A stretch of DNA of 64,000 nucleotides. Origin: Antedon mediterranea. Lineage: Eukaryota; Animalia; Echinodermata. The translations under genes and the position numbers were made by a program. The stretch is taken from the NCBI RefSeq assembly GCF_964355755.1, contig NC_092670.1, positions 9,290,201 through 9,354,200 of the forward strand, written 5' to 3'. Of this stretch, positions 20,301 through 64,000 are shown piece by piece (the first letter of the stretch is position 1; each line of letters opens with the position of its first letter). Under the pieces are notes generated by a model. It was not told the origin of the DNA. It did no database searches and saw only the letters and a program-made list of their open reading frames with translations.

Positions 20301-20708
20301 CAATAAATACAAATTTAATGTTTAAAAAGAGTTTTTTTCTATGAATATTGTTTGTACAAGAAATGTTATATTTAAATATTTATTGTCGTTATAATCATAT
20401 ATTTGACGCTACAATATTAATATTAAAACATAATCAGTTTAATAATCAAACGTCAATTTTTATAATGGTGCTAAGAAGACAAGTCATAACAGTAGCCTAA
20501 TTATCATTTATAATGGCGTTAAGAAGACGAATTATAACTAGTCTAATTATCTCTTATAATGGTGCTAAGAAGACGAATCATAACCAGTAGTTTAATTTTA
20601 ATGGTGTTAAGAAGAGAATTACATTTGATTGGAAAATGGAATGTTATTATTAGTTCTCCTATATTTCCATCAGTGATGAGCTCGTTATGTGCATATTCAA
20701 TAATTCAA

Positions 20709-20746
<38 letters not shown>

Positions 20747-23700
20747 TTAATAGTAGTAGTAGTAGTAGTAGTATTAATAAGATATGACTTTGTTAGTTAT
20801 TCATCTTCACATATTATAAATACCAATATAATTATATACAAATATTAATATGATATACTAATACTGAAAATGATATTGATCATTACTTATAGTTAATGAA
20901 CAACGCATTAGTTGTTTAACTTTGCAATATTTTATTTCCATAATGACCACTTACTACTAACATGTTTGCTTAAGAATGACTAATGAATGTCCATATATCA
21001 ATGTTCAAATGCTAAAGCATATAGCTCTCATTACAATCGCTTTGTTTCTTCTTGTCAAAAATTGATTTAAATGGATTTGAGTTCAAAGTTCAATGAATCA
21101 TGGCTTAATTAGCCCCTTTTTTTTATTACAATAACTTCCGCCATTCTTGTGTGTGCCACAAAAGATTTATATACCTCCTACAAATAATTAGCCAGAACAT
21201 TATATTGAACCCTCCTTTTAGTGCACATACTGTGTGCCTACCATGCCATAGTTCCTTAGATAATCAATGCTGTTTCCAACCCCTGGGCCACACTCACTTT
21301 TATAGCACAACCTGCCAGTCAAATTAAGGTAATACAGCTAATGTGTGCATTTGATAAGATATTAGCCTGGGACTGACTATAACTAACTCAGCCTCCCTCA
21401 GTTTTTAAGAATCAACAACACTGCCCTCAATTTTATGAGTAAGCCTTGATTTGTCATACGTTTGTTTATTTGTTATGATTAATATTAATATTGTGTAATA
21501 ATGCAATAGCAATATTATTAATAACAACTAATTGAAAGTCTGCCTTAATCATAATTTTTTTATGGCTAATATAAAAAGAAATATTATTCATAATAAAGAT
21601 AAGTAGATAATTGTGTTATGCGCTGCTGCTTCCGTGCCACTAGTCAAAGAAAGTCTCTATAGCCAAAGAAAGTCTCTATAGCCATAGTGAATTGTCATAG
21701 TATATTACTACACTATTGGAGTATTGGATACAAATTTATTAAAGTTGCGTAAATGGCAATCAACAAGAAGGAAAATAAATTTCCTCAATGCTTGCTTTAT
21801 ATTGTTAGACAAGAATAAATTAAACATTATTATTAATCTAGACAATAAGGTACAGTTGTGGTATTCTCAAGCAATTAACTAACATTGCCTCATCTGCTTT
21901 AACATGTTTGATGTGATATATTCAGAGATTTGAGCTGTTAACTTGTCATAAATGTTTGCACAAAATGGATCAACCAGGATACAAGAATAGTATACCGGTA
22001 CTCGAAATCCAATTTATGCAATAGCATTCGTTAACTTAATGCAATAGTAATCTCTACCGTGGTGCACTAGTATTCTCAAACTTGCACTAACTGGACGCAA
22101 CATAGTATACACTCACTATACGCAATCATACATCTTAATCTGAATCAAATTTAAATTATGCAATTATAAAGCATTCTTTACCTTGATGCAATAGCATTTC
22201 CTAACTTCATGCAATAGTAATATCTAGGATTATGCAACAGCATTCTCTAACATGGGGCAATAGTAATTTCTAACATGGTGCAATAGTTTTTTGATACAAA
22301 AGTATACACTAACTTGACGTATTTGCTAAGTTGATGCAATTATACATCCTAATCTGAAACAAATCTAATTGACGCAATAGCATTCTCTAACCTGATGCAA
22401 TAATATTACATGCCTGAACTAACTAACCCGAGAACATCTACGAAAAATGTGTTCACAATAAGTAACGATGCAAAAGAATGTACTAACAAGCTTACGCATT
22501 AATGAACGGGAATCTACACACTAACATGGCGCACTTACGTACTAACAAGTCGCACATACGTCGGAGTCATTTTTGTGCTTGTGCAACTTTCCCCTGCCAT
22601 AGTGCAGTTGCATAGTCACAAAAGTGATTCTGCCGTTATGTAATGTCATCCGCTTACAAGTGTGCTTTCGATTTTTCATCAATGATTGCTTCATCATCAT
22701 CTTTTAACAATTTTACTAACGATTTACCAATGGTTTTCAAGAGCTGCTTTGTTATCAACAGCGTATTTTTTGCAACATTTTATAGTTTTGCTTTCCAACT
22801 TTATCAACGGTTGTCTACTAATGACGTTTTTAAGTGTATTTTTCAATGCTATTTAATCACCTGTTTATTTACGATTATTTCATCAAGGAATAGCCATCCA
22901 TCGTGCCATCTGCTTCTTGTCGAACATGCGTTGCTGTTGTTGAAAAGTACACAGGTCTGTGTTGTTTATCTGTTTTCTTGTTGAAAATAAACAGTTACCC
23001 ATGAATTCATAAACAGGATCAATTTAGATAATTACTTTATTATCAATATGGGAAAGAGGACACACAGACAGTTAGAGTGGAGGTGCAGGATGCAGAAGTA
23101 TTAGGAGATTAGTTACTGACCCCCTACAAAATTAAATTGCTAAAATCAAAGAATGTAATAATTTAATTTAGAAAAAAAAAAGAAACATGTTCATTTTATT
23201 TTCTGCTACAATGATTTTAATATTTTATTCCAAGTAGAACACTAGATGAGTAGTAGTTCTAAATTGTATACGGTCGTTAAAAAACCTATTAAATTGCGAA
23301 CAATGATCTATTGTAAGGATTTTGTTTTATTCTTAATCGCTCTGGATCCAGCTTGATGGTTTCACTTCTTCATTGGATTAACTCAAACAAGATAAAGAAA
23401 TCTCATTGAAGAAGAAGTCATGTAAACAGCATCTGCAATTGAAGATCTCAATGCTCGAAAACGAAATTGTCTTATCTATGTCAAATATTCTCTTTCGTAA
23501 TGTTACATTAACAACTCTGAAATTTTGCGTGAGATATTTCCTGAATAGTCGTAAAATCAACTTGGTACTGTGTTTGACTGGCGTTTCCAACTAGTCATCA
23601 ATTTGTAGAAAGTACTGACGAAGAAGTGAATCTGTTGATCTGCATGAAATTATATTTTATATATAATAATAATCATTATAACATCATCAATGAGCTTTAA

Positions 23701-26700: not shown

Positions 26701-29244
26701 AGGTTTCCTTAGAGACAGGCTTTAAAAATGATTGGTTCCACCTTCGAAATAATATAAATTCAGTATAATTTACAAATGGATTTTATTTTTATTTACTTTT
26801 ACGTTAAATTCTCATATTTTTTAATTCTGACATTTTCTTGTATCTTTGTAATATAACTTTTTATACAGCAATATTTTTGGTGATAGTTTAAAATAAATAT
26901 AAATACATATAATAAATACTTGTATATAAATATATAAATATAAATATATAAATAGCACAGTACAGCACAACACAGCACAGATTCTATAAATAGCACAGCA
27001 TTGTCATTTGTTTCAGTTATTTGCCTTTGGATTTATAAATATATAGATATATACTTATATATAATAAATATAATAAAGCATATTATCAGTAATTATTTTT
27101 GTATTGTTTTGATTTTTTGTAGGAAAGTTAACAAGTCCTACAGAGGAAGATGTTGTCCCATCGTCGTTCATTGCAGGTGAGAATAATATTTTATGGTTCT
27201 TTTTTGTGGGGAAATTCGATTTTAAAGCACCATTTTGAAAATGTTTATCATGTTGGTTATCAACAGATGGCCCGCAGGCCACATCTAGTGCATTTCATAT
27301 TACTATTGAAGGTTTATTGCTAAAAATGAACATTAAGGTTTAATATGCTAATTAGCTCCCAATGAGCATGGACTTCACAGCATTGGTAAATTACAAGTAG
27401 GCCTACACAAAAACCCTTGTATAAATGCATTGTAATCATATATAACAATAATTACAATAATTAAAAATAATAACTACTACAGTAGTAATGACTATAATTT
27501 TTGTGTTTAAATTTTAAATGTAAATATGTATATGTTTGTATGATGTAGTATGTTTAAGCGGATGTTAGCCCTTGATAGCATTTGCAGCAATAAAGAAATT
27601 GAATTGAATTGAATATAACAGAGCTTTGTTATAATAGTGCAGTTATTATGTATTGTCTCACTAAAGTATAATAGTACGTATATAATGACGTTGACCGGAA
27701 TTTCATTATTATTAAAATATAAATATGATATAAATTTAATCTAAAATATTCTTATTTTGTAGTGATGGTATAGGAAGAACAGGCACCTACTGTCTCATAG
27801 ATATGACCTTGACGAGGATGATCAAAGGAGCGAAAGAGATTGACCTAGCTGCGACACTGGAACATGTACGAGACCAACGCCCTGGGATGGTTCGTACAAA
27901 GGTAAAATACCTCATGCTAAATCAGTCAATAGTGAAATTTAAATGGATTCAAAACTTGTTGCCCATTTTTATTCTTTTATATGGGCATATAGTGTTTATA
28001 ACTCTTTTTGCCAATTAAAATGGGTCCTCTCACAAAAAATATTTACCACCGCTCATTTTACTACAGTATTAGTATATTCAATAACCTAACAGTAGAACTT
28101 CTTCTATTCAGGGGACATTTATATTAAAGCGATGAACCGAACGAACTGAACCCCCAGTCGGTTCACCAGTAATAGTAGAATACCTCCTTCCTATTCAGAG
28201 AAACCCCTTATTAATGGGACACTTTGAGTTCTTAAAAAGAGTTCTACTTTAAGTGTGCTATGATGACTGCAATAATACAGTTTTGTCAAGCTCTTTCATG
28301 ATGTTTTCTTATGAGCTATTCTTAGCTAAAACATTAACTCTTGTTAAATGTAATGAAGTTTGCCTTGTTAGCAGAATTGATTTAGGATGCTGATTTTGTC
28401 TACAGTTACGTGACATTATAAAGATAGGGAAATAGGAAATAATTCATAATACCATATTTGTATTCCTGGACATAGTCATTCGTCTGCCCATAATTACCGG
28501 CGGTTTAAAATAAAAATTTAATTAAATCAATGAGGTTGCATTTAAGCTAAGTTCATCAGAATTTTCAACAAACAAGAAAACATATATCATTTTTTATTAT
28601 TCCTTTGGGACAAGCCTATTCAGTGGACATCCTTTAAGGGGGAACTTTGTTTGGTCGAGAATGTGTCCCCTCAATAGAGGTTATGTACTAGCACCAGTAT
28701 AATTCCACCTCCTTTGTACTAACAAATATCTGGGGTTGGGTCAGTCTGTATAAGTTTTGACTTAAAAATAGAATGAGGACATCAATAAAAACCTTACTTG
28801 GACAAAGTTGATGTCCTAAATGTTATGTCGAAAATGTTATAAGAGTATTTTATAAACCAATACAGTAATTAAAATGTTAAACCATTGTTAATTGTTTATT
28901 AAGAAGTTGGTAAAATAAAGAGAATATACGGTATAGAACCACTATTTTGGAAACATCTCAGAACCCAACAAAGTTTCCCATAAAGACATAACATATTTCC
29001 AATCATTTGTATCACAGTAAAGTATCCACTAAATAGAGGTGTCCACTTAATAGGGATGTTCCCCGAATATAGGGTGTCTCTCAAAGGAGGGGTTCTACTT
29101 TGGTAAATATTTAATTACATATATTTTTTTTTCTTCCCATTCTTGATGTATTTTTTTGTTGTATTCCCATAGGAGCAATTTGAATTTGTCCTGACTGCTG
29201 TAGCGGATGAAGTGAATGCCATTTTGAAAGCCATACCTCAGTAA
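11159..29244 (+). CDS. PTPRN: Receptor-type tyrosine-protein phosphatase-like N / N2 (IA-2/phogrin ortholog), 5'-partial. join(11159..11374,15060..15248,17823..17970,18460..18533,19041..19118,19450..19641,20183..20277,27123..27176,27763..27901,29173..29244)
   Basis: All introns are GT-AG and the phases match. The spliced protein has [85 protein letters not shown] and a C-terminal [11 protein letters not shown]. These are IA-2 family hallmarks. No ectodomain exons were recognised in the window. Confidence 0.96.
13431..13531. mobile_element. MITE family A copy
   Basis: TIR gctctgtctacacaatcaaacta / tagtttgatagtgtagatagagc. Confidence 0.75.
15060..15248 (+). CDS. PTPRN: PTPRN-like exon (DLCRQRMA...[10 protein letters not shown])
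   Basis: ttttcttag|GAT...CTG|gtaatt; 63 codons with the conserved IA-2 juxtamembrane motifs. Confidence 0.95.
17823..17970 (+). CDS. PTPRN: PTPRN-like exon (TYMEDH...KNRFEDVLP)
   Basis: ttttgtag|ACG...CCAT|gtaaga; phase 0-1. Confidence 0.95.
18127..18389. mobile_element. Tc1/mariner-pogo-type MITE
   Basis: ta|ccatatatcctcgggtataatccc ... gggatttaccagaggatatacgg|ta; TA flanks on both sides. Confidence 0.7.
18460..18533 (+). CDS. PTPRN: PTPRN-like exon (YDHTRV...DYVNASVI)
   Basis: tttttag|AT...ATC|gtaagt; phase 1-0. Confidence 0.95.
19041..19118 (+). CDS. PTPRN: PTPRN-like exon ([26 protein letters not shown])
   Basis: ccacag|ACG...GAG|gtacag. Confidence 0.95.
19208..19368. mobile_element. 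MITE family A copy (PIF/Harbinger-like, TTA TSD)
   Basis: tta|agctctgtct ... agacagagct|tta; internal tandem cactaccatatttaagcatat. Confidence 0.8.
19450..19641 (+). CDS. PTPRN: PTPRN-like exon (MIWEQG...RSFYLKNLL)
   Basis: tttacag|ATG...TTG|gttagt; PTP motifs including KYWP. Confidence 0.95.
20183..20277 (+). CDS. PTPRN: PTPRN-like exon with WPD loop ([19 protein letters not shown]...LLEFR)
   Basis: ttcttgcag|ACT...AGAAG|gttagt; phase 0-2. Confidence 0.95.
20460..20615. repeat. Degenerate minisatellite, about 46-48 bp, 3-4 copies
   Basis: Recurring tataatggtgctaagaagac...cataac. Confidence 0.7.
20708..20775. repeat. (TAG)n microsatellite
   Basis: Directly visible, with one interruption. 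Confidence 0.95.
22015..22405. repeat. Degenerate ~23-bp tandem repeat (tgatgcaatagcattctctaact-like)
   Basis: About 10 recurrences of a tgcaatag(c/t)a-like core. Confidence 0.65.
22562..22632 (+). ncRNA. mir-153: microRNA mir-153 precursor (mature 3p about 22608-22629)
   Basis: TTGCATAGTCACAAAAGTGAT matches the known miR-153-3p. The 5' arm GGAGTCATTTTTGTGCTTGTGCAACT pairs with it. It is sense to and intronic in PTPRN, as in vertebrates. Confidence 0.97.
27123..27176 (+). CDS. PTPRN: PTPRN-like exon ([19 protein letters not shown])
   Basis: tttttgtag|G...TGCAG|gtgaga; phase 2-2. Confidence 0.95.
27763..27901 (+). CDS. PTPRN: PTPRN-like exon (SDGIGRTG...[11 protein letters not shown])
   Basis: ttttgtag|T...AAG|gtaaaa; phase 2-0. 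Confidence 0.95.
29173..29244 (+). CDS. PTPRN: PTPRN-like last coding exon ([23 protein letters not shown])
   Basis: cccatag|GAG...CAGTAA; family C-terminus; AATAAA motifs downstream at about 29475 and 29575. Confidence 0.95.
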   Translation, partial: EQFEFVLTAVADEVNAILKAIPQ

Positions 29245-31975: not shown

Positions 31976-33214
31976 ATGCATGTACATGTATATTTATAAT
32001 GTTACAATAATGTCTCTCATAAATAAACAATGCAACAATGTTAGAATAATATTCATAAACTATAATATATTTTGGAGAATATATATATATTGAATTCAAA
32101 GGCAAATTACTTAAAATATTACCACGTTGTGAGAATTAATCGATGGATCTCGAAAATTTGCTTATTTTATTTTAAATTAAACGATAAAGTAAAGCAATCT
32201 GAAAGGGATTTCAAAACATTTGAATAGCGCCAATCGTCAAGACAAAATATATTTATTTATTACGTATTGATATCCACATTTTCTAGTTTCAAATCTAAAT
32301 ATACTTCGGATCAAGTGAAGTACCTTATATCAATAACCATTACTTAAACATTTGTAATTGATAAAACTACACACACAAAATAAATCCCATTTATGTATTG
32401 TAATGAATAATAATTAAATAAATGAATAAGTAATGAACTAATTATTAAAATGGAAATATAAACTGTGCCGTAAAATCTAGAATGTGTAATACTGTGACGA
32501 TAAAACTTGTGAGTGGCATGCTAAGGTTCATTGTTCGTCCACCTAGTAAACATAGGATAATAAACATTCATGTTGTTCCTTTCCCTCCGACATAAAAGTT
32601 ACAAATTGTGTTGAATTTCGTTACGTAACAAGTGTGCTAGTTACAAGTGTACTAGCACCAAGTGTGCGATTATATATGTTTAGTTATATTTTGACTGAGA
32701 ATTATATAAATATGAAAATGTGTATTTTTTTGAATGGGAATGTGCTATACAATGGAAAGTGGTCCGAATCGTCTTAAAATCTTACTTGTTGAAAGAGTAT
32801 GATGAGATACTAACATGTAATTTAAATATGTTGTATAACGTATTGTATTTAAGACACGTGTAATTTGTTTAGATCTGTGTAATAAACGGTGTATTTGTGT
32901 TGCAAGTAACCATGGCTTATACGTTTTTTTTTTATTCTGTTTTCCCTCGTCAACCACCTCCGGTAGACCTATGCCTGCTTGTAAAATCCCTGCTCACAGT
33001 GTGTATAGCCAACTGTTCAAAAGTCTCGCTCTCGAGTTAAATGTGCTATTCAAAAGTCCCGCCCTCTCGCGTTCAATGTTCTGTTTCAAAATTCCTCCCC
33101 TCTCGCGTGTAACTGTAAAGGCCAGCCTCCACAGACGACGATCGGTAACGGTAAACGGTAAGCAGAAAATAAAATATAGAATTTATATTATTTCTTATGA
33201 CCATTACACAACCT

Positions 33215-36624: not shown

Positions 36625-37320
36625 AACTGTTGGTATCCCTCCGTCAATATTTATCATAACACTTATTTTGGTTATATTGATCAATATGTGTAATATTTCT
36701 AACTTATGCATAGATCTATATATATATATATATAAACACAAGAGGCAAAGAACATTAATTCTAAACCGCCCGGTGATATACTGAAATTTAATTAATTAAT
36801 TTGAAACGATAAAGATGAGGAAATCTGTGAGAATGAGAAAAAGTCGTCCCAACCGAGACTCGAACTCGGACCGCCTGCTTGATATGCAGATGTCCTAACC
36901 ATTAGACCACTCGGGCTTTCATGGTATTGTTCGAACTCGATTGGATAACGACTCTTTAACATATAACATATCCAGATCTTGTTGGCCGATTTACTGTCTG
37001 CATTAGTGCTGGTATCCCTTCGCCAAACATTTATCAATCATAACACTGATTATATATTTTAATTTTCTTTATGTAATAATTATAACTTATACTATTCGTA
37101 GGCCTATATAATGTTATATACAAATTTAACAGCATATACAAAATTCTAAACCACCCGAATAATATATTGGAAATGAATTAATAAATTTTGAAGCGGTTAA
37201 GATGAGGAAATCTGTGAGAAGGAGAAAAAGCTGGTTCAACCAAGGTTCGAACCCGGATCATCTGCTTGATATGTAGACACCTAACATTTGACCACTGGGA
37301 CGCTCATAGTTTGATTGGAT
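36625..37320. repeat. Diverged ~385-bp tandem duplication carrying the tRNA-like sequence
   Basis: gatgaggaaatctgtgagaa at about 36814 and 37201; ggtatccct...atcataacact at about 36632 and 37011. Confidence 0.8.
36846..36916 (-). pseudogene. tRNA-like sequence (ATC at anticodon position); pseudo-tRNA or SINE head
   Basis: Minus strand: TGGTCTAATGGTTAGGAC, anticodon stem TCTGC/GCAGG, T arm CCGAG-TTCGAGT-CTCGG; acceptor stem has about 2 mismatches. Confidence 0.6.
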
Positions 37321-37522
37321 ATGTATCTGTTATGCTGGATTTACATGGGTATTGTTAGAGGTCCTAAAAACATATGTTTAAGAAGTACATTTTCGAGAAA
37401 TAAAATATGTGTGTTATGGGATGTACACTAGCATCAAGGAACACCAATTCGTAACTCCGTTTCTTTCTTGATAAATTACCTTCCACACATATTGTAAATT
37501 TCTGAAGTGGTGGTGGATTAGA

Positions 37523-38347
37523 CTTTGATGTTCATGAATGGTAAAGTCATGGGGAACAAATCATTAATGGTGAATTCATGGTGAACAAGTCTTTGATGTT
37601 GAAGTCATAGTGGACAAGTCTTTGATGTTGAAGTCATGGAGGGACAAGTCTTCGATGTTGAAGTCATGGTGGACAAGTCTTTGATGTTGAAGTCATGGTG
37701 GACAAGTCTTTGATGTTGAAGTCATGGGGAACAAATCATTAATGGTGAAGTCATGGTGAACAAGTCTTTGATGTTGAAGTCATACTGGACAAGTCTTTGA
37801 TGTTGAAGTCATGGTGGACAAGTCTTTGATGTTGAAGTCATGGTGGACAAGTCTTTGATGTTGAAGTCATGGTTTAAAAGTCTTTGATGTTGAAATCATG
37901 GTGGACAAGTCTTTGATGTTGAAGTTATAGTGGACAAGTCTTTGATGTTGAAGTCATGGAGGGACAAGTCTTCGATGTTGAAATCATGGAGGGACAAGTC
38001 TTTGATGTTGAAATCATGGAGGGACAAGTATTTGATGTTGAAATCATGGAAGGACAGGTCTTTGATGTTGAAGTCATGTGGGGACAATTCTTTGATGTTG
38101 AAGTCATGTGGGGACAAGTCTTCGATGTTTGATATCATGGGGACAAATCTTGTTGAAATCACGGGGGGACAAGTCGTTGATGTTGAAGTCATGAGGGACA
38201 AGTCGTTGATGTTGAAGTCATTGTGGAAAAATCGTTAATCTTGAAGTCATGGTGGACAGGTCTTGGATAGTGTTAGTCTAGGATTTTGAGTATGTAGGTC
38301 AAGTCTTGAATTTCTGAGGTCATGGTGACCAAGTCTATGATGTTGAA
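37523..38347. repeat. 29-30-bp satellite, more than 20 copies
   Basis: Unit ggacaagtctttgatgttgaagtcatggt; explains the repetitive ORFs at 37896-38238. Confidence 0.95.
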
Positions 38348-53810: not shown

Positions 53811-53887
53811 AAAGCCAATGTCGAATTTTGTGAAAACAAATTAACACGTTTACATTTTTATTTGTTTAGTGCCTACCTGTTCAAAAG

Positions 53888-56251
53888 ATGTCGAAGACGC
53901 TAGCAGGGATATTCGTATTTACGTTTTCATTATCTTTATTGCCATCGCCTTGCAGTACATTATCGTGTAAAACACATTCGTGCATCTACGTTCCCGATAC
54001 ACGTAGGTTAGAATGCGCCAGTTTAACAATGAACTGTATACCAAACGTAAACAGACGGACACTTGCAATGATTGATATAAAAAATAACGTGATAACACGC
54101 TTATCACCGAGAAGTTTTATCAACTATCCAAATCTTGAACAATTGGATCTTAGTAACAATTTAATATCGGCCATTGACCATGGAGCATTTACAGGTCTGA
54201 GAAGACTTCGAACACTTTGGTTGAATTTTAATCGCATTACCACTTTGACCACTAACATGTTTCAATCGATGCCAAATCTTGAAATACTCCATCTAGAAGG
54301 TAATGCCATTGTTTCAATAGACCCAAACGCGTTTGCTGGACTAACTCGATTAAGAGAGATCAATCTTAACGCTAACCGTTTGCAGAACCTGCCAGAAAAT
54401 GTGTTTCATTCTGTACCGACCTTAGTTCGTTTGATGTTAAGTGAAAACCGTTTGAACCTCCCTTCAACGTCACGGATATTTACTGGCCTTAAATTATTGG
54501 TGGATTTAGAACTAGAAGGCAACCATTTTACAAATCTGCCAAATATTAACGGGTTAAGTTCGTTATCTGATCTTGACCTAACCGATAACCAGATTACTGA
54601 CGTTTTGAATAATAGTTTTTCAACTAACTTGGGGCTTCGTGAGTTAAAACTTGCACGTAACAGAATTGTTTCGGTTCAATCTAATGCGTTTACGGGTATC
54701 AACCGCTTACTGGAATTAGATTTAGCATTCAATCTACTAACAAATCTTCCAGATCAGTCTATTAGAAATCTAAGAAGTCTTGAAAGATTGATTTTGAACA
54801 ATAACCAACTTTCGTCTATCGGTAATGACTTCAGTTCTTTTACAAAATTACAAGTCATTAGATTTGATAATAATATGCTCCATGAAATACCAAATCTTCG
54901 GGCGAACACGGCCATGACAAACATAGGGCTACGCATGAATAAACTTACAACGTTTGACCCAGAGAACATCGCCATGATGCCACAATTGACAAGAATAGAT
55001 CTTCGTAATAATTTACTAAATTGCGATTGCCGATTGAAACGGCTTCGCCAATTTTACATAACTCAAGCAGTTCCAGGTTTTGAAATCCCTGTGTGCACAT
55101 CACCTTTGTCGTTGAATGGGCGAAAATTAACGAGTGTTTTAGATTCTCAATTTGTGTGTTACCCTCCAAAGGTTGTAGCGCCACGACGAGTTGTGACAGT
55201 TTCTCTCGGACAACCAGCTATACTCGAATGCCATGGAAGTGGTAACCCAATACCAACAATAACATGGCGACTTCACGATCGCTTAAGATCTTTAGTTACT
55301 AAGCATACACAAAGTGTAAAATATAGTGTCTCGCAGTTCGGCTCACTTCACATAGCTAAGACCGTGCCAACTGATGCTGGATATTATATGTGCCGTGGCA
55401 CAAATCCTGCAGGTGAAGCTCAAGCGGAAGTAAGACTTCAGCTTCGAGCACCACCACCAAAGGGCACGACAGCAAAACCAAGATTGATAACAGCTGCGCC
55501 TAGACCAACTAACAATAAACCGGGATTACCTACTACGCCACATGATGACGTCATCGTTACTTGGAGCGATAGAACACAAATATTGAATTTTCCAAACGGG
55601 CCATTAATTCCTAAAACAAAACGACCAGATTCCACTATCGGAAAAAATAACTCGCATCCAATGGATTCATGCCGACTAAGTTCTGTTCCTATAGTTGCTA
55701 GTGTGGTAGTAACATTTTTTGTAACTTCTTTAGTTTGTACTATTTTAATACTATTTTTCTATAAACAAATAAGGTACTTTTTACATAAATACACGCCTTT
55801 ACGTAGATATAATTCACATATAGGAGTCCGTTTCAATAGCACTGATTCCAGAGATCATAACACTAATCTGACTTCATTTGAACATGTGGAAAACAGCCAG
55901 CTCCCTGAAGGAGTGTATGTCGTTCGTCCAGGGCAAGATGAGGCCTATCATAGCGGTAGCTGTTCTAGTAGAGAAAGCATTGACAGTAAGCCAAGTAACA
56001 GGTACATATTAAGTGATACATTGCCGAGTTCTACCAGCAATAGGTACCTTAGCTATGAAGAAACTAATGCAGTTCAAACGGGCGCCCAAAGCCTAAATAG
56101 TTATTATCGCAGGCCAAATAATCATTATCAGAACTTTAGAATTGCCGAAGAGGATCCAAATTACGCTAGTCTATTTCATCCTCCGGCAGCTCAATCGGAA
56201 AGAGCTAGTCAGGCATTCAGTGGTAGAACCTACATGGATCTTTCAAGGTGA
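53888..56251 (+). CDS. Leucine-rich repeat and Ig domain-containing single-pass membrane protein (LRRN/LINGO/LRRC4-like architecture), intronless CDS, 787 aa
   Basis: Signal peptide, Cys cap, about 14 LxxLxLxxN repeats, LRRCT (NCDCRL...PVCTSP...FVC), I-set Ig (LECHGSGNPIPTITW...DAGYYMC), P/T-rich stalk, TM IVASVVVTFFVTSLVCTILILFFY and a Tyr-rich tail. Confidence 0.95.
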   Translation: MSKTLAGIFVFTFSLSLLPSPCSTLSCKTHSCIYVPDTRRLECASLTMNCIPNVNRRTLAMIDIKNNVITRLSPRSFINYPNLEQLDLSNNLISAIDHGAFTGLRRLRTLWLNFNRITTLTTNMFQSMPNLEILHLEGNAIVSIDPNAFAGLTRLREINLNANRLQNLPENVFHSVPTLVRLMLSENRLNLPSTSRIFTGLKLLVDLELEGNHFTNLPNINGLSSLSDLDLTDNQITDVLNNSFSTNLGLRELKLARNRIVSVQSNAFTGINRLLELDLAFNLLTNLPDQSIRNLRSLERLILNNNQLSSIGNDFSSFTKLQVIRFDNNMLHEIPNLRANTAMTNIGLRMNKLTTFDPENIAMMPQLTRIDLRNNLLNCDCRLKRLRQFYITQAVPGFEIPVCTSPLSLNGRKLTSVLDSQFVCYPPKVVAPRRVVTVSLGQPAILECHGSGNPIPTITWRLHDRLRSLVTKHTQSVKYSVSQFGSLHIAKTVPTDAGYYMCRGTNPAGEAQAEVRLQLRAPPPKGTTAKPRLITAAPRPTNNKPGLPTTPHDDVIVTWSDRTQILNFPNGPLIPKTKRPDSTIGKNNSHPMDSCRLSSVPIVASVVVTFFVTSLVCTILILFFYKQIRYFLHKYTPLRRYNSHIGVRFNSTDSRDHNTNLTSFEHVENSQLPEGVYVVRPGQDEAYHSGSCSSRESIDSKPSNRYILSDTLPSSTSNRYLSYEETNAVQTGAQSLNSYYRRPNNHYQNFRIAEEDPNYASLFHPPAAQSERASQAFSGRTYMDLSR

Positions 56252-57526: not shown

Positions 57527-60310
57527 CTTGAAGGGTACATCTGTTCGTTATAATGGACATAAGATTCATATTCAGTTTGTCCATCAATAGACTAACCTCA
57601 GTCGTGCAATATTGTTACCGGTAATGTTTCGTTGTTTTGTATTATACAGGTAGGCCTACTGTAACAGGGATGTTTTGTTACATCATCGGTGTAATAGGCC
57701 TACGCAGATTTTGTGTATCCAATGGATCCTTTCTAGGATTTTGTCCCATTGCTCGGTTCAATAATATAATTTGCACTTCAAAATCCTGGACCCGCCTTTG
57801 TTACGAGGCGGCTTATGAAATTGTTTGAGGTTGGCTGGTTTGTTTAATTGGAAATCGTTTAATTTGTATAACTGGTATTTATATAACGTGGCTTTATGCT
57901 TCGTTTGTACAGCAAAATAATGTAAATATTATGTACTATTTTGTGAATACAACATATACTATGGCAAGTTAAACACGCCAAAAACACATAACACACCACT
58001 CACAAATTATCCATTTGTACAACATTCAAATCATACAATCTTATATCATGCAGTTCATTCAATGAAAACATCATTTAATTGATTTGCTGTGTTTAGTTGT
58101 ACAATTTGAATGTATCAATGTTAAGATTATTACTGTATTAAAAAGACAAATTCCGTGATACCGTATCACAGAATTATGTATGATGCTTGTCAACAATGTC
58201 ATATGTATACAGATAGTACTGGAAGGTGCTAATGAACCTTCATGTGTTTGTCACCCTTCTGAGAATTTTCTTTTCCGCGTCCAAAATTGGAGCGCCGCTC
58301 TTTTTTTTTAAGTTAAGTGTAGTCTCCCGTCTAGCCTTGAAATGATTTAAGAAAGAAGAGGGCAAATAATTCATAGTTTTGTATTCATAAAATTGTGAGA
58401 ATAGTTCATGAGTTGAAATAATGAATGATATTTAATGGATTCTGTTAAATAGAGCAGTCAATCTTTCAGCTTATGTGATATTTCCCCATTTAACTCATAA
58501 ACATTAAATGTTTACGTACTTTACATACAAGGATGACAAGGTGTTTTATATTATAAAAGTAATAAAGAAGTAATTACCATATTATATTATAAAAGTAATA
58601 AAAAAGTAATTACTTTTATAATATAAAATACATTGTCAAATGTCATGTATAAAGTAGGTGTTACATAATCCGTGTGAAAAAGAAGCAAATCGGTACACTT
58701 AATCCTCTTCACACGGTGCAGTGTGCAGTGCATCCACAGCTGAACACCAGCAGTCCCCTTTCCTGGGCGCGATATTTCTTTTCGTACGTCACAAAATAAA
58801 TATGAATATTCATTAGTCATATCCATGTGTGATGTAAGAATTGAGCTAACTACAATCCGCTAATTATAATGCAAGCGCTCCGTCTGAAGTTGAATGGATT
58901 AGACTATTATATGGACTTTGCATGTTGTGTTCGAATGCCATGAGCAACTTCTTTTTACTTTATAGTGAGAGAGATTATTTAGAGGGTTAAGTTTATTTAG
59001 AAATTAGTTCGGCTATCTTTCACATCAAGAGTTCCCAACTTATGTACGAAAAAAAAAGTCGCGTCCTCGGCAAGTCTCCCTAGGCTGTTCCATGTCTGAG
59101 TAATAAGTCTCATTTCCTGATCTACTGTTCTTCGGGTTCCATTTCGTCTGCCTTTCTCTGACGTTTTGGTGTCCATCGCCTGACTATCTGTCCACGCGTA
59201 AAACGCCGTTATTACTGTATGTTATTTCATCATTATGTCGTTAAAAAAAAGTTTATTAGACCAGTCATAGAACGAGTGGTCTTATGCTAAAAAAAAGTAA
59301 AACTTACAAAAATGCCGCTCGACTTTTTTACTTAACAGTTTAAGTTTAAATTATCGTTCTTTCCTTTCCTTAATAATTCGTTTATTGATATTTTAATAAA
59401 TTAAGAAACAATGATTTATTATCAATCATGTTTGCTACTAGACGAACTGTTCGGACCACAAAACATTTACACATAGGCCTACACATACATACACATGAAC
59501 TAAAAAAAATTACCCAGCAAGGTCATATTTCATGCATCTTTTTACACTAGTAAAATCAAATTATCTTGTTGAATGTACATCATCATATGCGACCATTACA
59601 CATACTGTTTTGTAATGCTTCCGTTCTCTTCTATTATACTGTAACTGCCTAAAGACGAGGCGCGAAAAAAAAGTATTAGGCCTAAGCGATATTTTAGAAA
59701 AGCGATAGGGAAAGCTGCAAGCCTCGTAATTTAGCGTTTTTACTGAACGTCTCTCGTTTTCATTTTTCACTCGAGAACCATGCGAAGTTTCGTGTTTTGT
59801 GTTTTCTGAGCGGGGAACATAAATTAACAGTGTTTCCTGGGAATTGGAAGGGTGACACGATATTCACACATCCACATATGACTTTTGATGACATATGACT
59901 TTTGATGACATACAGTAATGCGGAACATATAATGGCTATATAAATATTGATTTCGATCACGAAAGTATCATGCCGATATAATCCGAAAACTCTTCCGATA
60001 ATGGAGAGAGTCTCCCGATATTTCGAGTCATCACCTTCTCTTCCACTTTCCCGCTAATTGCAATTTCTCGGATAAACCAAACAAATATCCCGATATGTAT
60101 ACATTTTTAAATTCTAACTCTAAAAATTTAAAGATAGAGAATAGAAAACAAACTAATTATAATATCGGTGCGTAAGATGGTTATATACAGTAATTAATTC
60201 AATTTACCATTCAAATACAAAAAGTACTCAACGAATCTGCTTGTTGACAACGAAATAAAAATTCCCATTCGGATACGACAAATGTTTACGTTACATATGC
60301 CAATATCTTT

Positions 60311-60599
60311 AGGCAGAGCCATATATTGAAAGAGTTATGACATTGCGTTCACGTATTTTAGAAAGTCACGTGGGATGCACATCGGCCATTTTTGTATCCA
60401 ACTATTCCTATGTACCTTTAAACAAATTGATTGTTTTGATATTAAATTCTATAATAAAAGCATTTTGAACGTTATACATTTTAAAAATTAAAACAAAGGA
60501 CTCAACTCCATACTCTACATAGGAATAGTTGGACACAAAAATGGCATCTGATCCATTCAAAGTCGTAACTCTTTCAATAATAATATGGCAAAGTGCCCT
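60311..60599. mobile_element. Palindromic MITE-like element
   Basis: gccatatattgaaagagttatgac / gtcgtaactctttcaataataatatggc and gccatttttgtatccaactattcctatgta / tacataggaatagttggacacaaaaatggc. Confidence 0.7.
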
Positions 60600-60935
60600 C
60601 TATGGTTTGATTGCGGGTTGTTTGAATGTTGATATTGTAAGGATGCAGGTTTTCAATTTCGCAAAAACATACAAATCAATGTCATGTGCGTTTTGAAGAT
60701 GTTTATTTCAAGAGAAACAAATAGTCAACCTTTTCAACCAAATTGAAAGTGATGGGATAAATCATAATATTTGATAAGAAAATCAATCGTCCCGCTAGCA
60801 ATTGGGATAAACAGTTTACCAACCAAACACTATAGCAGGACTAAATAGGCCTATTGTATGAAGTAAGTATATTTAAAATAATAGGCCTTATGTTATATTC
60901 ACGAATTCCTTTGATTTTTTTATAGCATTTACAAC

Positions 60936-61014
60936 AGCTAAATGAAAACAATATAGTAAAAGAGGCAGAAATAAAGAGCTTTCGGGCAAAGTTACACTTG
61001 TCCTTCTTCAGTAG
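60936..61014 (-). ncRNA. Degenerate minimal hammerhead ribozyme motif plus downstream module (Penelope-like)
   Basis: Minus strand CTGAAGA-A-GGACAA..TTGCCC-GAAA-GC-TC; stem I is broken; the downstream ~45 nt is homologous to 63460-63505. Confidence 0.6.
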
Positions 61015-61519
61015 TCCAAGCAAAGAACTTATAACACAAGAATCTCCTGTTCGTCCAAAGCTTGTAACAATTGCGAAAGGCATTGTAGGATAGAATAGAG
61101 CTAATGGGCCATGGAGTAGCGCACCCGCATCAAATTAGAAAGTCAAAATCATAGAGGGATCTGCTAATACTATAGAGGGGATAGAGTAATTGACTGAGCC
61201 CTATATGAATTAGTAGTTTTGACTTCCTTTTAACCCTGTACTTCCGATAGTGTGTTTTGAATGCAAATTGAAGAACAGGAGATTCTTGTGTTATAAGTTC
61301 TTTGGTCCATGTCAAAGTATTTAGAGAAAATACAGAATGTAAATGGGTGACGATACCTGACACGTTTCTCGGACAGGTGACGTAGAATTTTGATATTTTT
61401 CGAAGTACTCAAGGATTATATATAATGCTACAAATATTTTTAAAAAAGTAATATATTGAGGCCTCTAAATCTACAATTAATCAATAATTACGGGTTTAAC
61501 AACACTCATCAGTGCGGTT

Positions 61520-61923
61520 TTAACATGATGCACTTGGCGCAGGGACATCACAATATTCCCAACGTCTCTGAGGGTCCGTGGTGTAGCACCAAGGACCTTC
61601 TCGGTTACTGCTTTGTGACGGGTTAACAGGTGGAGCATTACCAAGCGTTCGACAATAATTATGTTCTCCAAAATGTGTAGGAAACAAAGGAGGATTTCCG
61701 TTTGCACTTACATACCCGCGATACTTCTTAACGGGTTTGTGGGGTGTCTTTTCTGACCACATCTGGCATGTATAACCACTTCTTGTAACGGATAAAGTAC
61801 CAAAGTAATCCCCGCCGTCCTCTCTCGTGTAGCATTCTGGATCCGAGTCTGCAGCTGCTGCTGTTGATTGCTCCTCTGGTGCTTGTGTTGAATCACTATT
61901 CGAGGAGTCTTCCTCGACAACGT
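61520..61923 (-). CDS. Terminal exon of a kringle-domain protein
   Basis: Acceptor ctttttgtag|AC; CY..DGGDYFGTLSVTRSGYTCQMW..TPH..HNYCR..GPWCYTTDPQRRWEYCDVP..C*, with 6 Cys. Confidence 0.88.
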
Positions 61924-62027
61924 CTACAAAAAGCAATAATGTACACGTTTAACATAAATCCCTTTTGGGAAACAATAAAGGGCGTAGATTGTAGAGAGAT
62001 CAGTTATGTTTTGATTTACTTGACAAT

Positions 62028-62180
62028 GAGGCCGACTCGCTTCTAGCTGGTGATGGAACTCTTCTCGGATAAGGATTATAAACAGTAGTGTGCATTTTAA
62101 AGAACCCAGTTCATTATTCGAGAAGAGTAGGGGTTACTCCGGTGAACTGGTTCACAAAATAGCCCCTGCTGTATCAGAGG
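62028..62180 (+). mobile_element. Decayed SINE fragment in the kringle-gene intron
   Basis: ggataagga..ataaac..taaagaaccca..tcgagaagagtagggg, a segment typical of invertebrate tRNA-SINE central domains. Confidence 0.45.
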
Positions 62181-62396
62181 GATTATCACAGGACAGTGAT
62201 TAATTTACTAATGGTAATCATTGGTGAAATTACATAAAGACATAACAAAATATAAATAAAAAATAATACTAAATATAGTTGGCTATAGGCGGTGAATGGT
62301 TTAGTTTCACCCCACGTTGATATCTAAAATGCATGGCTTGGATTGATGATGATGAATGAATGGTATACCTGGCGGACTTGGCTTGGCCATACTTAC

Positions 62397-62513
62397 TACG
62401 TTGGACTTGATCCCCAGCACCCGGCTCATCAATAGGTTCATCAATTTCATTATCCTCTTCATCACCAGTTATATCAGAATTTTGTGGTGAACATGAAATT
62501 GCTAGAGTTTCGT
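62397..62513 (-). CDS. Penultimate (acidic linker) exon of the kringle-domain gene
   Basis: attttag|AC GAA...CGT A|gtaagt; 117 bp, phase 1-1, ETLAISCSPQNSDITGDEEDNEIDEPIDEPGAGDQVQR; in frame with the kringle exon. Confidence 0.75.
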
Positions 62514-62776
62514 CTAAAATATAAAGTCCACAATATTTTAATTAAATGCATTTAAAATGAGCATATATTATGATATTGATTTGTGATATTACAAAATGGA
62601 GACAATTGAAAGCCTCGACCAAATATTTACACGCGCCTCTCACTGTATCAATCGCAGTTGAAATACAGTTATGCGTAATAAAAATGTTTAGGCTTATACT
62701 ATCATTATTATTAGTATTGTTACCGTCGTTGTTGTTGTTTTAATGTATTACTATTCTAGGTCTATAGTGTTGCTTA

Positions 62777-63180
62777 AGGCCCATTTACACTAGGGTGATA
62801 ACGATCGACGATAATAGATAGACATTGATTTTTGTTTGGATAAAACGAAAGAAATTAGAACAGTTTCTTTCTAGAACTATAGGATAATCATGTATGCTGT
62901 ATTTAATAAAAATATTATTTTTGAAAATCCAATCAAATGACGTCATGATCAATAAAAACAATAAAATCGTTGTATTGTAACAATATTATTGCTCTTACTA
63001 ATCATGACGTCATTTGATTGGACGTGTGGAAATGTTATTTTCATCAAAGGCAGCATAGATGATAATCCTACAGTTCTAAGATGAAAACTTTTAAAAATTC
63101 TTTTGTTTTATGTATGAAAAATGCATAGGCCTATTTATCTTTTTATTGTCGATCGTTATCGCCCTAGTGTAAATGGGCCT
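62777..63180. mobile_element. Fully palindromic MITE (PIF/Harbinger-like, TTA TSD)
   Basis: tta|aggcccatttacactagggtgataacgatcgac ... gtcgatcgttatcgccctagtgtaaatgggcct|tta; the internal arms are also inverted. Confidence 0.88.
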
Positions 63181-63344
63181 TTAAAGGTCTCTTGACCTTA
63201 ATTGGCTTTCTTCTGCATCATATTTTGCTAATTAATTTAATACTAATCTGTATTAATATGTTTGATGCATTGTGAAATAGAAACGTCTGCGTTCAAACAT
63301 AAACGGCTAAACAGTTTATTTGGCGCATGCTTATATATATAATT

Positions 63345-63422
63345 GGTTCTTGGTGCTACACCACGGACCCTCAGTGACGTTGGGATTATTGTGTTGTCCC
63401 TGCGCCAAGTGAATCATGTTAA
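63345..63422 (+). pseudogene. Inverted partial duplicate of the kringle C-terminus
   Basis: 63345-63436 matches the reverse complement of 61506-61597 at 87/92 nt; AGA>TGA creates an in-frame stop. Confidence 0.85.
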
Positions 63423-63426
63423 AACC

Positions 63427-63463
63427 GCACTGATGAAGGGCTAGTGTTGCCCGAAAGCTCTGC
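63427..63463 (+). ncRNA. Minimal type I hammerhead ribozyme (Penelope-like element type)
   Basis: GCA-CTGATGA-A-GGGC-tagtgtt-GCCC-GAAA-GC-TC-TGC: intact core, 4-bp stem II, palindromic AGCT stem III, stem I gca/tgc; predicted cleavage after 63460. Confidence 0.75.
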
Positions 63464-63719
63464 TAACTTTTCTGGCTGTTTACTTTATCGTTTTGATTTA
63501 GCTTTTCGCTTTTTTTTTGTATCTCCATTGAGATCCAGCCACTGCAAAAAGCAATAATGTACACGTTTAACATAAATCCAAAGGCTTAAACTCTATAACA
63601 TTATCTCGAAATAAATGAATCTGAATGCTTACTGCATGCATCTATGCACCAGGATTATACTGGGAAGGTTTTAAATTGCATTTGCAGATTTGCTGTATCT
63701 GCTGTGAGTAGCCAAAACA

Positions 63720-63881
63720 ATTGTTTCCCAATGGAAAACGTCCTGCCGCAACTCAACGACGCAACGTAAGAACGTACTGTGCTCTTCCATCACTTTGCAT
63801 TCAACCACCCACCACCGGTTCCTTCCTGTGACACAGGTATGTTCTTACAGCACATACGTTGCGTCCTAGTGGGAACATGCT
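63720..63881. mobile_element. MITE family B copy, degenerate
   Basis: tgtttcccaatgg..acgcaacgtaagaa ... cgttgcgtcctagtgggaacatgct. Confidence 0.6.
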
Positions 63882-64000
63882 TTAATGTAAAATCTTCTCT
63901 GGATTACGCAAGTCGTATTATCCACAGATTTCTTCTGTATTGCATTGTGAACTGTTATCTAGCTAAAATACGTATACGGTACATTATACAATTCTTACCA

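What the first reader, a model, noticed from the sequence alone, without database searches (positions are those of the whole stretch)
63345..63580. Chimera of inverted kringle-gene tail, intact hammerhead ribozyme and duplicated splice-acceptor region
Seen: 63345-63436 is an inverted 87/92 copy of the kringle gene's last codons, stop and first 3'UTR bases (61506-61597). It runs without a gap into a complete minimal hammerhead (63427-63463), whose CTGATGA core is the last 7 nt of the shared sequence. After the module (ending gatccagccactg), 63545-63579 is a direct copy of the intron end at 61927-61961. Established: minimal hammerheads with a palindromic stem III mark Penelope-like element pLTRs and retrozymes, and PLEs make inverted partial repeats. 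Inference: a ribozyme-bearing retroelement has captured or rearranged a host kringle exon, or the kringle ORF is cargo of a non-autonomous hammerhead-terminated element.
Basis: partly seen in the sequence, partly recalled or inferred. Interest (0 to 1): 0.85.

Follow-up and report, generated by a model that had tools for sequence, protein, structure and literature searches.

The report
One-off hammerhead repeat insertion scar
A copy of a very common short repeat with a predicted self-cutting RNA motif sits in an intron of a kringle-domain gene, flanked by two short pieces copied from that same gene; the join exists only once, so it is likely an ordinary insertion accident and not a mobile element carrying the gene.

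Summary
63345-63436 is an 87/92 inverted copy of the kringle exon end, 63427-63463 fits the published minimal-hammerhead consensus, and 63545-63579 copies the intron end 35/35. The left junction is in contigs of two samples from two studies, so it is not an assembly error. The cargo reading fails. Sequencing runs show the 118-nt module is one of thousands of dispersed copies of a repeat of about 145 nt. The kringle tail has only two copies (gene and chimera), all 5 substitutions change or stop the protein, the chimera is intronic, and the related organism B lacks it. The shared core is a 10-nt microhomology (GCACTGATGA) between the gene's 3'UTR and the repeat's head. Best reading: one complex insertion, likely during Penelope-type reverse transcription, with both ends patched from nearby DNA of the same gene. 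Such events are described for LINE-1 and for DNA repair. Penelope membership is untested (no linked ORF reachable) and cleavage is untested. The scan has noted truncated hammerhead repeats and inverted exon copies separately in other genomes.

The parts
63345..63436 (+). Inverted copy of the kringle gene's last 25 codons, stop codon and first 14 nt of 3'UTR; reading frame broken by a new stop
   Evidence: 87/92 to 61506-61597; 5 of 5 substitutions change or stop the protein; single copy by depth
63427..63436 (+). 10-nt microhomology GCACTGATGA shared by the gene's 3'UTR and the head of the repeat; likely template-switch point
   Evidence: Repeat-family contigs align from 63427, the gene contig aligns up to 63436; expected 0.0065 times in 5 kb by base composition
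63427..63463 (+). Minimal type I hammerhead motif, predicted cut after 63460; antisense to the kringle pre-mRNA
   Evidence: Fits the consensus in Fig. S3 of PMC4209133; fold; shuffle test
63427..63544 (+). Near-complete copy of a high-copy dispersed repeat of about 145 nt; lacks about 7 nt of the family's head and about 20 nt of its tail
   Evidence: Summed contig depth 2.3-4.3 million against about 300 in the flanks (X2); loose-end consensus at 63427 and 63544 in organisms A, B and C
63545..63579 (+). Direct copy of the last intron's 3' end; on the gene strand it forms a complete-looking acceptor, ...TTATTGCTTTTTG plus CAG from the repeat
   Evidence: 35/35 to 61927-61961; gene-strand view; no RNA use seen among listed joints
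61506..61597 (-). Source of the inverted copy: end of the kringle coding exon
   Evidence: Pfam Kringle E 1.4e-13
61927..61961 (-). Source of the direct copy: pyrimidine tract upstream of the last exon's acceptor
   Evidence: Spliced joint 61923/62397 with CT..AC ends in X5 and X9
61520..61923 (-). Last coding exon of the host kringle gene (intact, spliced)
62397..62514 (-). Internal exon of the host gene; the next exon upstream lies outside 62515-64000, so the chimera is intronic
60933..61012 (-). Older, diverged relative of the same repeat in the gene's 3'UTR: core kept, helix II longer, helix I lost
   Evidence: 76% over 84 columns, E 5e-10; covered in organism B and in RNA-like runs; does not fold as a hammerhead
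63331..63342 (.). TA-run just left of the chimera; possible AT-rich target
   Evidence: Sequence; role inferred

Best explanation
This is a single-copy intronic chimera of a common hammerhead-motif repeat and two short pieces of the surrounding kringle gene, likely made in one retrotransposition event whose ends were patched by copying nearby DNA of that gene. Shown: the three segments, their sources 1.6-1.9 kb away, the 10-nt overlap, the high copy number of the repeat, the single copy of the chimera, its absence from organism B contigs, its intronic position. Inferred: a break near 63344/63580 exposed the + strand of 61506-61961; one end copied 35 nt of the intron end and then primed reverse transcription on the repeat's RNA inside its AC-rich 3' part; the other end folded back and copied 92 nt of the exon end; the two ends joined through GCACTGATGA. 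A variant with the same product has the reverse transcriptase jump from the repeat RNA to the kringle sense strand (DNA or nascent RNA) at the same 10 nt. The enzyme is likely that of a Penelope-like element (inferred from the ribozyme type). The product is likely neutral: the lone hammerhead lies antisense to the gene and is predicted to cut poorly or not at all as a monomer.
For: Two copies only of each host piece in organism A, one in organism B. Repeat depth thousands of times the flanks in X1, X2, X5, X6 and X7, and present in organism C. The copy runs from about 7 nt after the family's head to about 20 nt before its tail (loose ends), which fits copying of a whole short RNA (inference). 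The 3' break is in an AC-rich stretch 84 nt past the predicted cut; the Anolis element starts reverse transcription in an AC-rich stem loop at +111-118 with its cut at +26 (PMC11167929). 10-nt overlap rare by chance. Both host pieces can be read from one stretch of the + strand and their divergence is compatible with one age: 5/92 and 0/35, P 0.14. Precedent: three LINE-1 insertions with sequence templated from DNA near the site (PMC11702581); microhomology 5' junctions and captured host spacers in Adineta Penelope (PMC3846280).
Against: No reverse transcriptase ORF could be linked to the family (no genome; four collection scans empty). No convincing target-site duplication. No empty site: organism B contigs leave the window near 63287 (X6) and X7 has no cover at 63302-63335 or beyond 63590, so the whole neighbourhood differs and loss in B is not excluded. 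No microhomology is visible at the two outer junctions and only 2 nt (CT) at the repeat/intron-copy junction. DNA-only template switching gives the same sequence. The right junction is supported only by depth arithmetic.
Confidence: 0.58

Rival explanations
1. DNA-only multi-template repair (MMBIR or polymerase-theta type): a broken end copied the exon end, jumped by the 10-nt match to one of the thousands of genomic repeat copies, then to the intron end, and rejoined. No reverse transcription took place at this locus.
For: Germline templated insertions with up to five templates and microhomology are described (PMC8421209 passages). Thousands of repeat copies make a 10-nt match easy to find. 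No target-site duplication.
Against: It does not explain why the middle piece spans nearly the whole repeat unit and stops in the AC-rich 3' part without running into donor flank. The events in that paper were called with templates within 100 bp; these lie 1.6-1.9 kb away.
Confidence: 0.24
2. Transduction from a lost donor allele: the repeat first sat at the kringle acceptor (61926/61927); an antisense read-through RNA holding exon, repeat and intron end was reverse transcribed with a twin-priming-like inversion and reinserted 1.6 kb away.
For: The order (inverted upstream piece, microhomology, repeat, downstream piece) is what such an inversion would give (inference). Penelope elements move host DNA and make inverted 5' parts (PMC3846280).
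Against: The acceptor is intact and without the repeat in the contigs of organisms A and B (X1 records 2 and 3, X6 record 18). An insertion there would disrupt splicing of an expressed gene. 329 nt would have to be lost at the inversion point, far more than the 1-10 bp reported for LINE-1.
Confidence: 0.07
3. The chimera is kept because it regulates the gene: the intronic antisense copy pairs with the exon end in the pre-mRNA, or the copied acceptor acts as a decoy or starts a poison exon.
For: The 92-nt duplex is very stable in prediction (-167.7 kcal/mol). The copied intron end plus CAG looks like a full acceptor. The chimera is in both samples of organism A, with one variant base in X2.
Against: 5.4% divergence from the source and absence from organism B fit neutral drift. 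The X5 mRNA contig has 0 differences over 61500-61923, so no majority editing. No joint at 63541 among the listed joints (123 joints were not shown; contigs drop rare forms).
Confidence: 0.05
4. One reading: kringle tail plus hammerhead is a mobile non-autonomous unit, or the kringle ORF is itself cargo ending in a decayed hammerhead.
For: Direct adjacency of stop codon and hammerhead core. A 6-7 nt match (AGTGTTG) follows the shared core in the gene after a 7-nt gap. An older relative of the repeat lies in the gene's 3'UTR.
Against: One chimera only. The gene is spliced and has an ortholog in organism B. Gene 3'UTR vs repeat beyond the 10-mer scores no better than random: 114 of 300 random 60-mers (anchored) and 360 of 500 random 120-mers (local) score as well. 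No flanking pair of pseudo-LTRs.
Confidence: 0.03
5. Assembly artefact.
For: No listed contig spans the whole chimera; the right junction is not shown directly.
Against: Left junction in X1 and X5; five fixed differences from the gene; contig breaks at 61956, 61932 and 63550 in X1 fall where a true 35-nt duplication would break a 31-letter graph, and organism B contigs run through unbroken.
Confidence: 0.03

Closest known systems
Minimal hammerheads (min-HHR) of metazoan Penelope-like element pseudo-LTRs (Cervera and De la Pena 2014, PMC4209133; parts 1-2 of 4 and supplement file 2 parts 1-2 of 3 read)
   Same: CUGANGAH core, G10.1-C11.1, GAAA, two-base palindrome, UH, 3-bp helix I; thousands of mostly solitary copies per genome; echinoderm examples are in their alignment.
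   Different: This family is not in their alignment; no ORF link shown here; helix II is 4 bp, like their Acropora Neptune entry and shorter than most; in this copy the U-rich 5' flank is replaced by kringle sequence.
Complex LINE-1 insertions with locally templated DNA, and LINE-1/mRNA chimeras (PMC11702581 and PMC13174262, passages; PMC2104539, abstract)
   Same: Retro-copy joined to host pieces from near the site or from another RNA, microhomology at the 5' junction, up to three segments.
   Different: The element is a hammerhead repeat without poly(A) tail; no target-site duplication found; both ends are patched; germline and invertebrate.
Penelope-mediated host gene capture in Adineta vaga (PMC3846280, parts 1-4 of 5) and Terminons (PMC6431247, passages)
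   Same: Penelope-type repeat next to copied host sequence that includes intron sequence; microhomology 5' junctions.
   Different: There a whole intron-containing gene lies between pseudo-LTRs with an 8-bp duplication and an empty site. Here one repeat lies between two small host fragments, the reverse arrangement, and no gene was moved.
Microhomology-mediated templated insertions, MMB-TI (PMC8421209, passages)
   Same: Inverted and direct copies of nearby sequence, several templates, neutral germline variants.
   Different: Templates here are 1.6-1.9 kb away and the middle piece is a near-complete retro-type repeat.
Metazoan non-LTR retrozymes (PMC7229834, passages)
   Same: Short non-coding hammerhead repeat in high copy; a few contigs show tandem joins of part of the unit.
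   Different: Retrozymes have canonical hammerheads and occur as tandem 150-450 bp units; this motif is minimal and solitary here.

Membership tests
Minimal type I hammerhead (PMC4209133) | CUGANGA core plus one extra base before helix II, G10.1-C11.1, GAAA, UH | tested here: met
   63430-63460: CUGAUGA A, GGGC/GCCC, GAAA, UC against the Fig. S3 consensus
Minimal type I hammerhead (PMC4209133) | Palindromic 15.2-16.2 allowing a dimer helix III | tested here: met
   AGCU is self-complementary; 4-bp duplex -3.9 kcal/mol. The unconstrained dimer fold chose another pairing
Minimal type I hammerhead (PMC4209133) | Helix I of about 3 bp or more | tested here: met
   GCA/UGC, 3 bp, in the minimum-energy fold; many published entries have 3 bp
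Minimal type I hammerhead (PMC4209133) | Belongs to a genome-wide consensus family with the core conserved | tested here: met
   No variant at 10% or more listed in 63430-63460, while 63467-63515 has several; the older relative keeps the core at 76% overall identity. Descent alone could explain the first point
Minimal type I hammerhead (PMC4209133) | Self-cleavage (as dimer or protein-assisted) | not testable with these tools
   Needs in vitro assay; contigs cannot show RNA ends
Rfam hammerhead families | Covariance-model hit | tested here: not met
   None at gathering score or E up to 10
Penelope-like element pseudo-LTR | Linked ORF with telomerase-like RT and GIY-YIG endonuclease in some copies | not testable with these tools
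   No genome held; scans of metagenome, viral and prokaryote collections gave 0 matches; none in the window's ORF list
Penelope-like element pseudo-LTR | 3' end about 85-120 nt past the hammerhead cut, in an AC-rich stretch, with an optional 30-40 nt tail | tested here: inconclusive
   This copy ends 84 nt past the cut and the family consensus about 20 nt later in AC-rich sequence; two discrete ends could not be resolved
Penelope-like element pseudo-LTR | Inverted 5'-truncated copy of the element, or target-site duplication | tested here: not met
   The inverted segment is host exon; no convincing duplication. Both features are optional in PMC3846280
Penelope-mediated gene capture (Adineta NRPS type) | Host gene between two pseudo-LTRs, with duplication and empty site | tested here: not met
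   One repeat between two host fragments; no empty site in organism B
   X2 depth 585.7 = 304.3 + 281.5; X7 50.7, gene only; X1 27.1 over 63308-63424
Metazoan non-LTR retrozyme | Canonical hammerhead in tandem 150-450 bp units | tested here: not met
   Minimal motif, single unit at this locus
Complex insertion with locally templated DNA | Inserted pieces match sequence near the site, with microhomology at junctions | tested here: met
   Sources at 1.6-1.9 kb; 10 nt at one inner junction, 2 nt at the other, none seen at the outer two

The most novel reading that the evidence does not exclude
A Penelope-type reverse transcriptase jumped from its own RNA onto the nascent pre-mRNA of the gene it was inserting into, using the hammerhead core as the pairing site. 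Such cis jumps would be a regular by-product of this family and would scatter short exon copies and new splice acceptors into introns. One substitution (63412) makes the copy match the reverse complement of the repeat's own head, as if cDNA had primed there (post hoc P 0.013).
Probability: 0.12. Interest if true: 0.5.

Novelty: new member of a known kind. Interest (0 to 1): 0.2.

Why it matters
As it stands it is a neat fossil of one insertion event. It shows that a hammerhead repeat insertion can be patched with local gene sequence, as known for LINE-1. It does not reveal a new mobile cargo system. If a genome-wide survey found many such patched copies, it would give a way to read the poorly known end-joining steps of Penelope integration from genomes, and a route for local exon-fragment duplication.

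Tried and rejected
Whole-genome BLAST: no genome held. Rfam: no hammerhead. Pattern scans for the repeat or relatives with a linked ORF: 0 matches in 2 metagenome scans, 1 viral scan, 1 prokaryote-genome scan; these collections hold little animal DNA. Sequencing-run search: no RNA holder listed on record; X5 and X9 behave as RNA only by their spliced contigs. Idea that the gene's 3'UTR is a decayed hammerhead repeat: not supported by anchored or local alignment against random controls. Target-site duplication search: only matches of 5-8 nt in wrong positions. Local templates for 63285-63350 and 63575-63660: none of 10 nt or more in 58000-64000 apart from the TA-run's self-complement. The 11-nt match to the family tail at 25707 and the 15-nt match at 32179-32193 show no further likeness by eye. 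Folding z-scores are not significant (-1.13 to 0.56). Kringle protein search: 24 relatives at 32-47% identity, one named (plasminogen-like); it does not name the gene. ORFs at 63674-63844 and 63793-63903 have no Pfam hit. Look-ups of earlier findings for this place, this sequence and the words hammerhead or Penelope in this genome returned nothing. Six paper searches listed no description of this family or of both-end local patching for a Penelope-type repeat; subscription papers are mostly not held, and supplement file 1 of PMC4209133 could not be searched.

Full report
Observation. The window is animal DNA (mir-153 hit); earlier scan notes call the genome a feather star (not checked by me). 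63345-63436 matches the reverse complement of 61506-61597 at 87 of 92 bases. 63427-63463 is GCA CUGAUGA A GGGC(UAGUGUU)GCCC GAAA GC UC UGC. 63545-63579 equals 61927-61961 at 35 of 35. My minimal-hammerhead descriptor hit once in the window and twice in 200 shuffles. Rfam has no hammerhead hit here. The motif fits every position of the consensus in Fig. S3 of PMC4209133.

Host gene. The source is a minus-strand gene with a Pfam kringle domain in its last coding exon (E 1.4e-13). Runs X5 (organism A) and X9 (organism B) have contigs spliced from 62397 to 61923, and the two exons translate in one frame. The hammerhead is on the + strand, antisense to the pre-mRNA.

The module is a common repeat. 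I laid 7 of the 10 listed runs. Over 63427-63544 the summed contig depth is 552,878 in X1 against about 30 in the flanks, 1.98 million against about 190 in X6, and 2.3-4.3 million against about 300 in X2. The tool warns that this is no copy number; I take it only as thousands of copies. Organism C (X10) holds the repeat and no kringle piece. Loose ends pile up before 63427 (100 contigs in X2) and behind 63544 (122 in X2). Their consensus is well defined for about 7 bases on the left and about 20 on the right and then turns into mixed AT-rich sequence (agreement about 0.5-0.6). I infer a unit of about 145 nt, of which this copy lacks the extreme head and tail.

The chimera is real and single. 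Contigs 63156-63455 (X1) and 63166-63455 (X5, another sample and study) cross the left junction with no differences, 19 bases beyond the shared stretch. The X2 contig ends at 63438 and has one other base at 63373. Over the kringle tail X2 shows 585.7 = 304.3 (chimera) + 281.5 (gene), and X7 of organism B shows 50.7, the gene only. No listed contig crosses the right junction. Solving the X2 depths of the two bins at 63557-63590 gives one extra contig of depth about 277 ending at 63574, as a junction contig would; the same bins in X7 fit the gene contig alone. Organism B contigs leave the window near 63287 and X7 has no cover beyond 63590, so there is no clean empty site, and loss in B cannot be excluded.

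What the junction means. The gene contig aligns up to 63436 and the repeat contigs from 63427, so GCACTGATGA belongs to both. A given 10-mer of this make-up is expected 0.0065 times in 5 kb, so the match likely guided the join. The gene's 3'UTR is not a decayed repeat: beyond the 10-mer it scores no better than random (114 of 300 and 360 of 500 controls score as well). All 5 substitutions in the copy change the protein, one to a stop. Divergence of 5/92 (95% interval 1.8-12%) and 0/35 are compatible with one event. No target-site duplication was convincing.

Mechanism. Both host pieces can be read from the + strand of one 456-nt stretch. A break with resection, one end copying the intron end and then priming on the repeat RNA, the other folding back on the exon end, and joining at the 10-nt match, gives the sequence seen. 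A jump of the reverse transcriptase from the repeat RNA to the kringle sense strand gives the same. These steps are inferred. In favour of reverse transcription: the middle piece is nearly a whole unit, and it stops in an AC-rich stretch 84 nt past the predicted cut, near the spacing of the Anolis element's internal start (PMC11167929 parts 1-2 of 4). LINE-1 experiments report three insertions with DNA templated from near the site (PMC11702581 passages). Adineta Penelope copies show microhomology 5' junctions and captured host spacers (PMC3846280). DNA-only template switching (PMC8421209 passages) is the main rival and cannot be excluded from one locus.

Function. Published single minimal hammerheads showed no detectable cleavage and multimers only low activity (PMC4209133); the Anolis one needed its protein. 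This copy is solitary and antisense to the gene. The inverted copy could pair with the exon end in pre-mRNA (-167.7 kcal/mol) and the copied intron end forms an acceptor-like site. The X5 mRNA contig shows no differences over the exon and no listed joint uses 63541, but 123 joints were not shown and contigs drop rare forms. I rate a function as unlikely.

Membership. It is a minimal hammerhead by sequence and structure; cleavage is untested. It works like a Penelope pseudo-LTR fragment, but membership is not shown: no ORF could be linked. It fails the tests for a retrozyme array, for Adineta-type gene capture and for a mobile cargo unit. Also seen: PMC8557442 passages, PMC6431247 passages, PMC7229834 passages, PMC13174262 passages, PMC2104539 abstract. 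Earlier scan notes gave me the ids of PMC11167929, PMC7229834 and PMC8421209 and report similar ordinary cases in other genomes.

Verdict. Observation confirmed; cargo interpretation not supported; retroelement-linked local rearrangement likely. New member of a known kind; interest 0.2.

Noticed in passing
60933-61012 (-): An older relative of the same hammerhead repeat lies in sense in the kringle 3'UTR, with the core intact, a longer helix II and helix I lost; covered in both organisms and by RNA-like contigs that run across it.
   Followed up: partly
63427-63544 family: Loose ends suggest that most copies start about 7 nt before helix I at an initiator-like TCACTT in AT-rich flanks, so the family may be a fixed-length element of about 145 nt and not a set of randomly truncated ends. 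A few contigs show tandem joins of the hammerhead part or of the tail.
   Followed up: partly
63405-63413: The substitution at 63412 makes the copy match the reverse complement of the repeat's head over 8-9 nt; post hoc chance 0.013.
   Followed up: partly
63386 and 63394: Two of the five copy/gene differences fall on sites where organism B's gene has a third base, so part of the divergence may be allelic.
   Followed up: no
62776-63181: Nested high-copy inverted-repeat elements: 39-nt arms (62776-62814, 63143-63181) around a 223-nt palindrome (62864-63086); MITE-like.
   Followed up: no
61021-61304: High-copy element with 35-nt inverted ends inside the kringle 3'UTR, next to the older hammerhead copy.
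   Followed up: no
22560-22634 (+): mir-153 precursor between exons that look like a tyrosine phosphatase of the IA-2/PTPRN type (19940-20344, 27740-28018; the name and the known host arrangement are recalled).
   Followed up: no
53870-56251 (+): 793-aa single-exon ORF that reads by eye as leucine-rich repeats, an Ig-like domain and a membrane segment.
   Followed up: no
36783-36916 and 37170-37277: tRNA-like hit on the minus strand within a two-copy repeat, next to 29-30 nt tandem arrays at 37467-38311; likely a tRNA-derived SINE.
   Followed up: no
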